Shown: one piece after another, positions 1,018 to 3,042 of the stretch
Layout: each line of letters opens with the position of its first letter
Numbering within the stretch: the stretch's first letter is position 1
Assembly: GCA_020629595.1 (NCBI GenBank)
Contig: JAHDDA010000002.1
Coordinates: 2,129-26,272 of the forward strand
Length of the DNA stretch: 24,144 nucleotides
Origin: Chitinophagales bacterium
GTDB lineage: Bacteria > Bacteroidota > Bacteroidia > Chitinophagales > UBA2359
Direction: 5' to 3'
Made by a program: the position numbers and the translations under genes
Notes under the pieces: model-generated
What the model saw: the letters and a program-made list of their open reading frames with translations, nothing else
What the model was told of the DNA's origin: nothing
The model's database searches: none

Positions 1018-1860
1018 ATGCAAGATAAAAACTCAAACTTAAATAAATTTAGTTTTAAATCCATATTTCTAAATGATAATTTTATTATTTGGATAATAGT
1101 TATTGATGCCATTTTAATTTATTGCGATGGTTTTGGAGGATACGATTTAAACAAAATAAGTAATTACATCACTATTTTTTATGTAATTGAAGTATTAGTG
1201 AAGTTACACCATTATGGTTTTAAGAAATATTTCTCAAGTGGATGGAATAGGTTTGATTTTGCTATTGTAGCCATTTCAATAATAGATTTAGTAAGTCATT
1301 CTTTAATTGGATTATCGGCTCTGAGAGTTTTTAGAGTGGTTAAAACGCTTAGGTTAATTAAATTTATTCCTGATATTGATAATATTTTAGCAGGCTTAAA
1401 AAGAGCAATGGCTTCTTCGGTTTTTGTTATTTTAATTTTTGTAATTTTCTTGCACATTAGTTCTGTTTTTACTACAAACTTATTTAAAGAAAAATCTCCC
1501 GAACACTTTGGTAATACAGTAAAATCTACCTATTCCATTTTTAAAGTAATTACTTTAGAAGGTTGGTTCGATATATCAGAAAGTGTAGCTCATTCATTTG
1601 ATTCCAAAAACCCAAATGACGAAACAGGGGTTGAAGAGGTAGATGGAAACGATATGAGAGCAGTAACAACTACAATTTTCTTTATATCTATCGTATTTTT
1701 TGGCGGAATTATTGGAATTTCATTAATAAACTCCATTTTTGTAGAAACAATGATGAGTGACAATAATGATCCTGTAAACGATAAACTTAAAGATTTAGAA
1801 GGGAAATTAGCTAATTTAGAGGACAAAATAGACTTATTACTTTCTCAAAAAAACAAATAA
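1018..1860 (+). CDS. Bacterial voltage-gated cation channel (BacNav/Ion_trans 6TM family), filter TLEGWFD
   Basis: Six hydrophobic segments, S2 FxxExxxK, S3 WNRFDF, S4 with basic residue every third position (LRVFRVVKTLRLIK), pore HFG...FKVITLEGW, S6 ending FVETM, C-terminal heptad coiled coil (KLKDLEGKLANLEDKIDLL). Confidence 0.93.
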   Translation: MQDKNSNLNKFSFKSIFLNDNFIIWIIVIDAILIYCDGFGGYDLNKISNYITIFYVIEVLVKLHHYGFKKYFSSGWNRFDFAIVAISIIDLVSHSLIGLSALRVFRVVKTLRLIKFIPDIDNILAGLKRAMASSVFVILIFVIFLHISSVFTTNLFKEKSPEHFGNTVKSTYSIFKVITLEGWFDISESVAHSFDSKNPNDETGVEEVDGNDMRAVTTTIFFISIVFFGGIIGISLINSIFVETMMSDNNDPVNDKLKDLEGKLANLEDKIDLLLSQKNK

Positions 1861-1861
1861 A

Positions 1862-2410
1862 ATGCCATCAGCTTTTGCCCATAGCCTTGTTGCTTTTACA
1901 TTCTCAAAATTTGTAAAGGCAAAGTATTACTCAATTAGTTTATTATTTTGGGGAATTTTTTGTAGTTCTATTCCAGATGCAGATGTAATAATGTTCAAAT
2001 TTGGCTATGATTATAGTCACTTTTTAGGACATCGTGGCTTTTTTCACTCATTAGCGTTTTGTTGTTGTCTTGCTGCTTTTATTACTTTGGGTTATTTACT
2101 TTTTACAAAAACTAGCATTAAGAGAGGAATAGTCATTTTCATATTCTTGGCACTTTGCTCTTGTTCTCATGGACTTTTAGATACTTTAACAAGTGGTGGT
2201 TTAGGCATTGCTTTATTCTCTCCATTTGATGATACACGCTATTTTGCTCCGTTTCGTCCTATAAAAGTCTCTCCTATTGGTATCGAAAAATTCTTTTCAG
2301 AGTGGGGTTTAAAAGTGTTAATTAGTGAATTTAAGTGGATTGGCGTACCTTGTATAATTCTTATAGTTATTCAATATTTAGCTAATAAAATTTTCAATTT
2401 TTCTAAGTGA
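1862..2410 (+). CDS. Membrane-bound metal-dependent hydrolase, YdjM/DUF457-like
   Basis: Motifs AHS, PDAD, GHRGFFHSL, SHGLLD, GLGIALFSPF typical of the family; hydrophobic helices; starts 1 nt after the channel stop. Confidence 0.85.
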   Translation: MPSAFAHSLVAFTFSKFVKAKYYSISLLFWGIFCSSIPDADVIMFKFGYDYSHFLGHRGFFHSLAFCCCLAAFITLGYLLFTKTSIKRGIVIFIFLALCSCSHGLLDTLTSGGLGIALFSPFDDTRYFAPFRPIKVSPIGIEKFFSEWGLKVLISEFKWIGVPCIILIVIQYLANKIFNFSK

Positions 2411-3042
2411 AAGCAATCTTATTTATAACATTTTTTACTTGTTTTAACCTATCGGGACAAGAAATTTTAGACAGTTTAATTCAGCGTAATTTATTAGAAG
2501 AAAACAGCGTTAAATTTGGAAAAAATAAAGTATTTACTAAAGATTTAGAAACAGAAGCATTTACAGCCATTTCTTTTTTTGAAGAATTAACAAGCACGAA
2601 AATAAAACTAAAAAGAGCCAATATAAACACTAGTTTAAACTGCCGACCAACTTTATTTTCTTTACTTTTTAGAAAGCAAAACAACAGAAAATACATTGTA
2701 AGAGTAGCAAGAAAACCTAAAAATGGAAGCATTACAATTGATGGTGCTAATTTTAATGCGAAAGTTGGTGTTTTAGCTCACGAATTTAGCCATATTATTG
2801 ATTATTCTAATAGAGACTTTTGGGGAATTTTAAAAAGGCTATTAGATTATAGAAGTAGTAAAACTATTGAACTTTACGAAAAAGAAATAGATAAATTGAC
2901 TATTTCTAAAGGATTAGGCTTTCAGCTTTTAGAATGGTCGAAATACGTATTACAAAACCCAAATGCGAGTGAAGAATACAAGAAATTTAAGAAAGAAATA
3001 TATTTAGAACCCAACGAAATAAAAGAAGAAATGATAAATTAA
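2407..3042 (+). CDS. Secreted hypothetical protein with HExxH motif (putative zinc metalloprotease fold)
   Basis: GTG start overlapping upstream TGA (GTGA); signal-peptide-like N-terminus (MKAILFITFFTCFNLSGQ); GVLAHEFSHIIDY followed by a downstream E-xx-x-D (YEKEID). Confidence 0.7.
   Translation: MKAILFITFFTCFNLSGQEILDSLIQRNLLEENSVKFGKNKVFTKDLETEAFTAISFFEELTSTKIKLKRANINTSLNCRPTLFSLLFRKQNNRKYIVRVARKPKNGSITIDGANFNAKVGVLAHEFSHIIDYSNRDFWGILKRLLDYRSSKTIELYEKEIDKLTISKGLGFQLLEWSKYVLQNPNASEEYKKFKKEIYLEPNEIKEEMIN

What the first reader, a model, noticed from the sequence alone, without database searches (positions are those of the whole stretch)
1552..1572. BacNav-family channel with a CavMr-like selectivity filter TLEGWFD: candidate native prokaryotic Ca2+ channel
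Seen: filter residues 179-185 read T-L-E-G-W-F-D. Known: Na-selective BacNavs such as NaChBac carry TLESW; the Ca2+-selective CavMr of Meiothermus ruber carries TLEGWVD, where Gly at filter position 4 was reported to be important for Ca2+ preference. This filter differs from it only at position 6 and keeps the position-7 Asp. Inference: a Ca2+-preferring voltage-gated channel in a Bacteroidota species, where such channels are little studied. The voltage sensor looks intact (R-x-x-R-x-x-K-x-x-R-x-x-K).
Basis: partly seen in the sequence, partly recalled or inferred. Interest (0 to 1): 0.75.

Follow-up and report, generated by a model that had tools for sequence, protein, structure and literature searches.

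The report
Bacteroidota voltage-gated channel, calcium-type filter
This is an intact bacterial voltage-gated cation channel whose pore filter (TLEGWFD) looks like that of calcium channels. It belongs to a separate, apparently uncharacterised branch of the bacterial sodium-channel superfamily that always keeps the key glycine, so it is a good but unproven candidate for a native bacterial calcium channel.

Summary
Window 1018-1860 (+) encodes a 280-aa single-domain 6TM channel (Pfam Ion_trans). Residues 179-185, nt 1552-1572, read T-L-E-G-W-F-D, and S4 reads R103-R106-K109-R112-K115.

The protein is not a close relative of CavMr: 28% identity, with lower BLAST scores to the CavMr/NavPp group than to NavAb-like channels. 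In a maximum-likelihood tree it falls in its own well-supported clade, here called W. This clade is centred on Bacteroidota and sits outside both the sampled CavMr/NavPp clade and the canonical TLESWSM clade.

In W the filter is [TS][IVL]-E-G-W-[YNF]-[ED].

Selectivity stays open. Position 6, the one place it differs from CavMr, matters: CavMr V6T drops PCa/PNa from 218 to 40. Asp7 is dispensable. Gly4 in NavAb gives PCa/PNa <0.01.

My estimate is about 0.55 that the channel prefers Ca2+ over Na+. The scan noted a TVEGW channel, apparently of this family, before on other DNA (e1-4861028).

The parts
1018..1860 (+). Channel gene, 280 aa (P0001), single-domain 6TM voltage-gated cation channel
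   Evidence: ORF. Pfam Ion_trans 2.2e-30, 106 bits. AF2 model pLDDT 89.7. Foldseek hits to CatSper, NavMs, NavAb and CavAb. dN/dS about 0.05 against the 74%-identical orthologue in L053, with dS saturated.
1075..1365 (+). Voltage-sensing domain S1-S4 (residues 20-116)
   Evidence: Predicted helices 20-37, 45-66, 75-92 and 97-116. E58 (S2) and D80 (S3) are invariant. N30, D48, F55 and K62 are at least 90% conserved in the clade.
1306..1365 (+). S4 gating-charge helix (residues 97-116): R103, R106, K109, R112, K115
   Evidence: Sequence. R103, R106 and R112 are at least 90% conserved; position 109 is K or R in 97/98.
1375..1485 (+). S4-S5 linker and S5 (residues 120-156)
   Evidence: Continuous predicted helix 120-156.
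1516..1551 (+). P1 pore helix (residues 167-178)
   Evidence: Predicted helix 167-178. Y172 and F175 are at least 90% conserved.
1552..1572 (+). Selectivity filter T179-L-E181-G182-W183-F184-D185
   Evidence: G182 and W183 invariant, E181 in 95/98, position 7 is E or D in 94/98, position 6 is Y65/N16/F12.
1564..1596 (+). P2 pore helix (residues 183-193). Ser187 replaces the clade's 90%-conserved Pro.
1597..1644 (+). Lineage-specific acidic extracellular loop between P2 and S6 (residues 194-209). The W183-to-G229 spacing is 45 residues against 29-30 in most clade members.
   Evidence: Spacing tally. 7 D/E against 2 K/R in residues 194-215. Only 48% identical to the orthologue but still acidic. 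Model pLDDT 66-82, no regular structure.
1645..1758 (+). S6 inner helix (residues 210-247) with the clade signature GG(229-230)-x-x-G233-x-S235-x-x-N238
1759..1857 (+). C-terminal neck (D248-N249-N-D) and heptad-like helix continuing from S6 (residues 248-280)
   Evidence: Single helix 210-279 in the model, as in full-length NavMs hits. D248 and N249 are at least 90% conserved.
1862..2410 (+). Downstream YdjM-family membrane protein gene. Its start is 2 nt after the channel stop, so it is probably co-transcribed.
   Evidence: Pfam YdjM 1.3e-21. The same luciferase-like | channel | YdjM order is found in L053, beside the 74%-identical orthologue, but not in 17 more distant loci.

Best explanation
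The gene encodes an intact, depolarisation-activated cation channel of the BacNav (single-domain Nav/Cav) superfamily, presumably a homotetramer. It belongs to a distinct clade (W), found mostly in Bacteroidota. The W pore filter [TS][IVL]-E-G-W-[YNF]-[ED] has an invariant glycine at position 4, a near-invariant glutamate ring at position 3 and an acidic residue at position 7.

Four copies of E181 would form the high-field-strength ring. Gly182 leaves that ring exposed with a wide entrance. D185 and a lineage-specific acidic P2-S6 loop add negative charge at the outer mouth.

The most likely consequence is a pore that conducts Ca2+ in preference to Na+ (PCa/PNa >1, possibly much greater), giving voltage-controlled Ca2+ entry.

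Shown here: gene integrity, fold, conserved sensor charges, filter sequence, clade-wide constraint on Gly4, and separate phylogenetic position. Inferred: tetramer formation, voltage gating and, above all, ion selectivity.
For: Identity as a channel:
- Ion_trans at 106 bits.
- AF2 model pLDDT 89.7 with S1-S6, P1 and P2 helices and a long S6-CTD helix.
- Structural matches to CatSper, NavMs, NavAb and CavAb.

Functional constraint:
- dN/dS about 0.05 against the orthologue. The P-loop is 94% and S6 91% identical, against 74% overall.
- E58, D80, G182 and W183 are invariant; R103, R106, R112 and E181 are at least 90% conserved in 98 sequences.

Separate clade:
- Support values: W 95/93, CavMr/NavPp clade 97/94, canonical clade 100/99.
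- Median BLAST bits to P0001: W 139.5, CavMr/NavPp group 75.9, canonical 88.6.

Gly4 is selected, not neutral:
- One change in 77 W rows, against at least 5 changes in 22 CavMr/NavPp rows.

Literature link between Gly4 and Ca2+:
- CavMr (TLEGWVD) has PCa/PNa 218; G4S gives 11.9 and G4D 7.7. NavPp D4G gains 41. TLEGWTD is still 40 in both scaffolds. D7M gives 144 (PMC7041947).
- The 'beacon' rule says Gly at HFS+1 goes with Ca2+ selectivity in one-domain channels such as CatSper and CavMr (PMC10120453).
- The P-loop IFKVITLEGWFDI aligns with Cav3.1 domain I IFQVITLEGWVDI.
- Position 7 is Asp, not the Met that excludes Ca2+ in NavAb.
Against: - No member of clade W has been recorded electrophysiologically, as far as the searched library shows.
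- The filter rule is scaffold-dependent. NavAb S178G (TLEGWSM) has PCa/PNa <0.01 and becomes Li+-preferring. S178G/M181A reaches only 0.47 (PMC12919392).
- Position 6 is Phe here and Tyr, Asn or Phe across the clade. That class of residue has never been tested. Even the mild V6T change cut CavMr selectivity five-fold and abolished monovalent discrimination.
- The window's sub-lineage has lost the clade's conserved Pro187 and gained a 15-residue loop of unknown effect.
- Identity to CavMr is only 28%.
- Tetramer formation and gating are inferred from homology only.
Confidence: 0.55

Rival explanations
1. It is a voltage-gated channel that conducts mainly monovalent cations (Na+, perhaps Li+), or is non-selective with PCa/PNa at or below 1. 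Gly4 only widens the vestibule, as in NavAb S178G, and the aromatic residue at position 6 does not recreate the CavMr geometry.
For: - NavAb S178G has PCa/PNa <0.01 and PLi/PNa 2.18. S178G/M181A has PCa/PNa 0.47.
- CavMr V6T and G4S become K+ and Cs+ permeable.
- The W scaffold is as far from CavMr (median 76 bits) as from Na+-selective channels (89 bits).
- Relatives are annotated automatically as 'voltage-gated sodium channel', which is weak evidence.
Against: - Position 7 is acidic, not the Met181 that the NavAb work identifies as the Ca2+-excluding residue.
- Absolute conservation of Gly4, with Glu3 and an acidic position 7, across a deep clade argues for a specific filter chemistry unlike TLESW.
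- All natural one-domain channels with Glu/Asp-Gly at these positions that have been recorded (CavMr, CatSper) are Ca2+-selective.
Confidence: 0.33
2. It is a NavPp-like channel: Na+ permeates, but extracellular Ca2+ binds the acidic outer mouth (D185 plus the acidic loop) and blocks it. The channel would then work as a Ca2+-modulated Na+ conductance.
For: - NavPp (TLEDWTD) has PCa/PNa 0.31 and is blocked by Ca2+.
- The window protein carries a strongly acidic outer loop, 7 D/E in residues 194-215, plus D185.
Against: - NavPp's behaviour depends on Asp at position 4. Changing it to Gly turned NavPp into a Ca2+-preferring channel with PCa/PNa 41.
- The window protein has Gly4.
- Most W members lack the acidic loop.
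Confidence: 0.07
3. The gene product does not form a conducting voltage-gated pore: it is a decaying gene, a regulatory subunit or a sensor only.
For: The sub-lineage has unusual features: loss of Pro187 and a variable inserted loop.
Against: - Full-length ORF with all sensor charges, filter and S6 signature intact.
- dN/dS about 0.05, with the P-loop and S6 the best conserved parts.
- Confident channel fold.
Confidence: 0.05

Closest known systems
CavMr (Meiothermus ruber; AnclNav group; Shimomura et al. 2020, PMC7041947)
   Same: Single-domain 6TM voltage-gated channel. The filter is identical at 6 of 7 positions (TLEGWVD against TLEGWFD), with Glu3, Gly4 and Asp7. There is an extended P2-S6 (L6) loop and a C-terminal helical tail.
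   Different: Only 28% identity to the M. cerbereus orthologue. It falls in a different clade: CavMr/NavPp is monophyletic without it, 97/94. Position 6 is Phe, not Val. The L6 loop is acidic and Cys-free, whereas CavMr's has two cysteines. S6 reads GGIxGxSLxNSIFV instead of LNLFIGVI. In the CavMr group position 4 switches between G and D; in this clade it never does.
Canonical NavAb-like BacNavs (NavAb, NavMs; filter TLESWSM)
   Same: Same fold (Foldseek TM 0.55-0.69). They are the best single-domain PDB sequence hits: NavMs 93 bits, NavAb about 73 bits. Sensor charge pattern, Asn in S6, and CTD helix are shared.
   Different: The filter has Gly4, Phe6 and Asp7 instead of Ser4, Ser6 and Met7. 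The canonical clade (100/99) excludes it. BLAST alignments to canonical members cover only about the first 174 residues.
NavAb S178G 'LivAb' (PDB 9UC3; PMC12919392)
   Same: It carries T-L-E-G-W in a homotetrameric one-domain pore.
   Different: It is an engineered NavAb with Ser6 and Met7. It is Li+-preferring and excludes Ca2+ (PCa/PNa <0.01). This shows that TLEGW alone does not predict Ca2+ selectivity.
Domain I P-loop of T-type Ca2+ channels (Cav3.1, Cav3.2) and CatSper subunits
   Same: Cav3.1 domain I IFQVITLEGWVDI against window IFKVITLEGWFDI. CatSper (7eeb_B) is the top Foldseek hit, TM 0.67. Both have Gly at the position after the acidic ring.
   Different: These are eukaryotic four-domain or heterotetrameric channels with asymmetric filters. 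The similarity outside the P-loop is only at superfamily level.

Membership tests
Voltage-gated ion channel superfamily (Pfam PF00520 Ion_trans) | Profile match above the curated threshold | tested here: met
   106.1 bits against a cut-off of 25, residues 21-245
Voltage-gated ion channel superfamily (Pfam PF00520 Ion_trans) | S1-S4 sensor with basic residues every third position in S4 and acidic counter-charges in S2 and S3 | tested here: met
   R103, R106, K109, R112, K115; E58 and D80 invariant; F55 and K62 conserved
BacNav superfamily (single-domain prokaryotic Nav/Cav) | One 6TM domain of about 250-300 aa with a T-x-E-x-W filter between P1 and P2 helices | tested here: met
   280 aa; filter 179-185 between helices 167-178 and 183-193
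BacNav superfamily (single-domain prokaryotic Nav/Cav) | C-terminal neck plus helical bundle or coiled coil continuing from S6 | tested here: met
   Model helix 210-279. The matches are to full-length NavMs structures. This is a prediction only.
BacNav superfamily (single-domain prokaryotic Nav/Cav) | Homotetramer giving voltage-gated cation current | not testable with these tools
   Needs expression and patch clamp. No complex prediction was run.
AnclNav group (CavMr/NavPp clade of Shimomura 2020) | Branches inside the clade that holds CavMr and NavPp-type channels | tested here: not met
   The sampled CavMr/NavPp clade is monophyletic without it (97/94), and the window clade is separate (95/93)
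AnclNav group (CavMr/NavPp clade of Shimomura 2020) | Sister-group relation to CavMr/NavPp rather than to canonical BacNavs | tested here: inconclusive
   The free tree puts it outside canonical + AnclNav (94/85). The AU test does not reject W + CavMr/NavPp held together (p 0.495). The Bacillus group and archaeal or short AnclNavs were not sampled.
AnclNav group (CavMr/NavPp clade of Shimomura 2020) | Filter with one or two more acidic residues than TLESW[AS][SM] (acidic position 7; G or D at position 4) | tested here: met
   TLEGWFD; definition from PMC8677417
Canonical NavAb-like BacNav | Filter TLESWSM and placement in the NavAb-like clade | tested here: not met
   Filter differs at positions 4, 6 and 7. 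The canonical clade (100/99) excludes it.
Native prokaryotic Cav (functional class, sole member CavMr) | PCa/PNa much greater than 1 measured from reversal potentials | not testable with these tools
   Electrophysiology is required
Native prokaryotic Cav (functional class, sole member CavMr) | Filter residues reported as required in CavMr: Gly4 and Val6 | tested here: inconclusive
   Gly4 is present and clade-invariant. Position 6 is Phe, not Val. V6T lowers PCa/PNa from 218 to 40. An aromatic residue at position 6 has never been tested.

The most novel reading that the evidence does not exclude
Clade W is a further major lineage of prokaryotic one-domain voltage-gated channels, beside the Bacillus-type, NavAb-like and AnclNav groups. 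It would be natively Ca2+-selective through a fixed E-G-W-(aromatic/Asn)-(E/D) filter. Voltage-gated Ca2+ entry would then be a conserved trait of many Bacteroidota. Here it would sit in an alga-associated bacterium that also encodes a Kv-type K+ channel, which together are the minimal parts of an excitable membrane. The clade would also give a second, independent natural scaffold on which to test the Gly4 ('beacon') rule of Ca2+ selectivity.
Probability: 0.3. Interest if true: 0.7.

Novelty: new variant of a known kind. Interest (0 to 1): 0.5.

Why it matters
Only one native prokaryotic Ca2+-selective voltage-gated channel (CavMr) has been characterised. Whether its Gly4-based mechanism is general is in dispute, because NavAb S178G does not become Ca2+-selective.

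This channel belongs to a deep, separate clade in which Gly4 is fixed and position 6 is aromatic. That makes it a natural, independent test of the rule.

If Ca2+-selective, the clade would:
- show that voltage-gated Ca2+ signalling is widespread in Bacteroidota;
- supply compact new Cav templates for structural work and for use as genetic tools.

If not, it would show that a Cav-like filter sequence cannot be read as Ca2+ selectivity outside its scaffold. That would matter for genome annotation.

Tried and rejected
- A degenerate DNA pattern for the CavMr filter region found four Meiothermus/Deinococcota orthologues but not M. ruber itself. I used the M. cerbereus orthologue as the stand-in.
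- NCBIfam has no model for either the window protein or the CavMr orthologue.
- Published reference sequences (NaChBac, NavAb, NavPp, archaeal AnclNavs) could be read in the eLife supplement but not loaded into the tree, because long sequences may not be typed in. Canonical and TFEDWTD-type references came instead from plasmid records and from Bacteroidota genomes. The Bacillus group is therefore missing from the tree.
- The window's neighbours are not found beside 17 more distant family members, so gene context gives no functional hint beyond genus level.
- The listing of cluster members returned no organism names for ten clade members.
- Literature searches for TVEGW, TIEGW, IEGWY or VEGWY in a channel context, and for BacNav + Bacteroidetes + calcium, found nothing relevant. 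The eLife supplements hold no EGWYE, EGWNE, EGWFD or EGWYD bacterial sequence.
- No RNA holder was listed for the gene.
- I rejected the idea that the high PDB rank of T-type Ca2+ channels shows special kinship. Their scores are sums over four repeats, with the best single repeat at 50 bits against 93 bits for NavMs.

Full report
**Observation**

The + strand ORF at 1018-1860 encodes a 280-aa protein, P0001. Nucleotides 1552-1572 read ACT TTA GAA GGT TGG TTC GAT, which is T179-L-E-G-W-F-D185. S4 carries R103, R106, K109, R112 and K115 at every third position.

The protein matches Pfam Ion_trans at 106 bits against a cut-off of 25. An AlphaFold2 model built on a 98-sequence alignment has mean pLDDT 89.7. 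The model shows these elements:
- S1-S4
- a continuous S4-S5 linker and S5 helix
- P1 helix (167-178), then the filter
- P2 helix (183-193)
- an unstructured loop (194-209)
- one long helix (210-279) covering S6 and the C-terminal tail

Foldseek finds CatSper, NavMs, NavAb and CavAb as the best matches.

**Is the gene functional?**

Against its 74%-identical orthologue (P0002, locus L053), dN/dS is about 0.05, with dS saturated. The P-loop (94% identity) and S6 (91%) are the most conserved parts.

In the 98-sequence alignment, E58 (S2), D80 (S3), G182 and W183 are invariant. N30, D48, F55, K62, R103, R106, R112, E181, N238, D248 and N249 are at least 90% conserved. The voltage sensor, filter and gate region are thus all under constraint.

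**What family is it?**

Close relatives are few. Two metagenomic proteins at 74% and 71% identity share TLEGWFD and an acidic insert.

The next tier lies at 30-45% identity. It has about 135 single-domain proteins, taken from a 5.8-billion-protein search and a 1.84-billion-representative search. Nearly all carry [TS][IVL]-E-G-W-[YNF]-[ED].

Named members are Pontibacter sp. G13, a Bacteroidota MAG, a Bacteroidales MAG and one 'Candidatus Anammoxibacter' MAG. JGI annotates several automatically as 'voltage-gated sodium channel'.

In whole genomes the family is patchy:
- 13 of 24 genomes of the window's own family have a match.
- Only 26 of 401 Bacteroidota genomes have any BacNav-type match at E no greater than 1e-8. 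Only some of those matches are of this type.

**Relation to CavMr and canonical BacNavs**

I fetched CavMr orthologues from Meiothermus genomes. BLASTP of P0001 against the M. cerbereus orthologue gives 28% identity and 80 bits.

The CavMr-type group is very large, with at least 1,753 hits, including a Flavobacteriaceae member. Bacteroidota genomes also hold all of the following:
- CavMr-like filters (TLEGWTD, TLEGWID)
- NavPp-like filters (TLEDWTD)
- canonical filters (TLESWSM)
- canonical-clade filters TLEGWA[DE]

A careful ML tree (IQ-TREE, LG+C20 PMSF) used 113 sequences and was rooted on the genome's own Kv channel. It resolves these groups:

| Group | Rows | Support (UFboot/SH-aLRT) |
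|---|---|---|
| Window clade W | 77 | 95/93 |
| CavMr/NavPp clade | 22 | 97/94 |
| Canonical NavAb-like clade | 11 | 100/99 |
| Canonical + CavMr/NavPp + TFEDWTD together, opposite W | 35 | 94/85 |

The deeper relation is not settled. An AU test does not reject a tree with W and the CavMr/NavPp clade held together (p 0.495). The root rests on one long outgroup branch. The Bacillus group and the archaeal or short AnclNavs are not in the sample.

Median BLAST scores to P0001 tell the same story: W 139.5 bits, CavMr/NavPp group 75.9 bits, canonical 88.6 bits.

W also has its own S6 signature, GG-x-x-G-x-S-L-x-N-S-I-F-V-[DE], followed by D-N-N-D. The other groups have L-N-L-F-I-G instead.

Shimomura's two sequence sets contain no bacterial EGWYE, EGWNE, EGWFD or EGWYD filter. 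No paper in the searched library mentions such filters in a channel. On this evidence the clade is uncharacterised.

**Is LEGW a neutral variant?**

No. Position 4 is Gly in 98/98 aligned clade members and in 76/77 tree rows. The one exception is a degenerate sequence, so there is one change on the tree.

By contrast, the 22-row CavMr/NavPp clade holds 11 G, 10 D and 1 N, with at least five changes.

**What does the filter predict?**

Published data, all from Shimomura 2020 (PMC7041947):

| Channel or mutant | PCa/PNa | Note |
|---|---|---|
| CavMr (TLEGWVD) | 218 | |
| CavMr G4S | 11.9 | |
| CavMr G4D | 7.7 | |
| CavMr V6T | 40 | becomes K+/Cs+ permeable |
| CavMr D7M | 144 | |
| NavPp D4G | 41 | |

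The authors conclude that Gly4 and Val6 are required and that Asp7 is not. A 2023 review generalises this. In its reading, Gly at the position after the acidic ring gives Ca2+ selectivity in one-domain channels such as CavMr and CatSper. It also notes that CavMr's extended, disulfide-bearing L6 loop may contribute (PMC10120453).

Against a simple reading: NavAb S178G (TLEGWSM) keeps PCa/PNa <0.01 and becomes Li+-preferring, and S178G/M181A reaches only 0.47 (PMC12919392). Gly4 therefore acts only in a suitable scaffold, and Met7 is a Ca2+-excluding residue in NavAb.

The window protein has Gly4 and an acidic position 7, which are favourable. It has Phe at position 6, which is untested and sits at a position known to matter. 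It also sits on a third scaffold. I therefore put about 0.55 on Ca2+ preference, 0.33 on mainly monovalent or non-selective conduction, and small odds on NavPp-like Ca2+ block or loss of function.

**Lineage-specific features**

- The distance from W183 to the S6 Gly-Gly pair is 45 residues, against 29-30 in most of the clade.
- The extra loop is acidic, with 7 D/E against 2 K/R in residues 194-215. It is poorly conserved in sequence (48% identity) but stays acidic in the two orthologues. It is modelled without regular structure.
- Four such loops would ring the outer mouth. I infer that they raise the local cation concentration, especially of divalent cations. This is untested.
- Pro187, conserved in 90% of the clade, is Ser here.

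**Context**

The host is a 61%-complete, 2.56-Mb MAG. The neighbouring thioredoxin reductase is closest to Chitinophagales and Saprospiraceae proteins. The DNA is held by three runs of one 'algae metagenome' sample from one study, which may be the source assembly.

The window is ordinary chromosome. It carries ParAB, Fmt, rhamnose and polysaccharide-export genes, Lnt and TrxB.

The channel gene is flanked by a divergent luciferase-like monooxygenase gene and a YdjM-family gene that starts 2 nt after the channel stop. This order is kept beside the 74%-identical orthologue but not in 17 more distant loci.

The genome's only other Ion_trans gene is a Kv-type K+ channel with a TVGYGD filter.

**Verdict**

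The Ca2+-channel idea is plausible but unproven, and it rests on weaker ground than 'differs from CavMr at one position' suggests. What the tools add is that this channel represents a separate, Gly4-invariant clade. It is neither a CavMr relative nor a canonical variant. That makes it a useful independent test of the Gly4 rule.

Earlier notes of this scan had covered the three other filter classes: canonical-clade TLEGWA[A/D/E], AnclNav TLEGWTD and NavPp-type TLEDWTD. One unchecked first-reader note describes a TVEGW channel that appears to belong to this clade.

Noticed in passing
L005:1405-2208 (-) = G000 contig C50: This is the only other Ion_trans gene in the genome. It encodes a 267-aa Kv-type K+ channel (filter TVGYGD; Ion_trans 140 bits plus Ion_trans_2). 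Its C-terminal tail carries two CxxC pairs (CSEC...CHSC), a possible zinc ribbon. With the Cav-like channel, it would give the cell both depolarising and repolarising voltage-gated conductances.
   Followed up: partly
window 2407-3042 (+): A 211-aa ORF with no Pfam family. It has a signal-peptide-like N-terminus and an HEFSH (HExxH) motif, so it may be a small secreted or lipoprotein metalloprotease. It overlaps the YdjM gene stop by 4 nt.
   Followed up: no
window 1862-2410 (+); L053:4106-4639: The YdjM-family membrane protein gene starts 2 nt after the channel stop. The arrangement luciferase-like monooxygenase (divergent) | channel | YdjM is kept beside the 74%-identical orthologue, but not in more distant relatives.
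   Followed up: partly
L032, L037 versus L038, L039 (Bacteroidota genomes G215, G395, G211, G207): Inside the canonical NavAb-like clade, channels with TLEGWAD or TLEGWAE are sister to TLESWSM channels. These are natural Ser4-to-Gly and Met7-to-acidic swaps on a Na+-type scaffold. They are natural counterparts of the NavAb S178G and M181 mutants.
   Followed up: partly
P0074 (1567 aa), also P0075, P0095, P0102: The best multi-repeat hits are two- and four-repeat channels. Their repeats carry NavPp-like filters (T[GL]EDWTD in all four repeats of P0074). The best single repeat scores 82 bits to P0001. Their origin, protist or bacterial, is unknown.
   Followed up: partly
P0059 and P0057-P0060, P0063 (Bacteroidales MAGs, about 360 aa): These clade members with a TIEGWFD filter carry an insert of about 100 residues, rich in Lys and Glu, between S2 and S3 on the cytoplasmic side of the voltage sensor.
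   Followed up: no
L004, L002, L003; P0262: Within Deinococcota the CavMr-type filter TLEGWVD (Meiothermus) is sister to a Thermus channel with the NavPp-type filter TLEDWTD. This shows how easily position 4 switches in that clade.
   Followed up: partly
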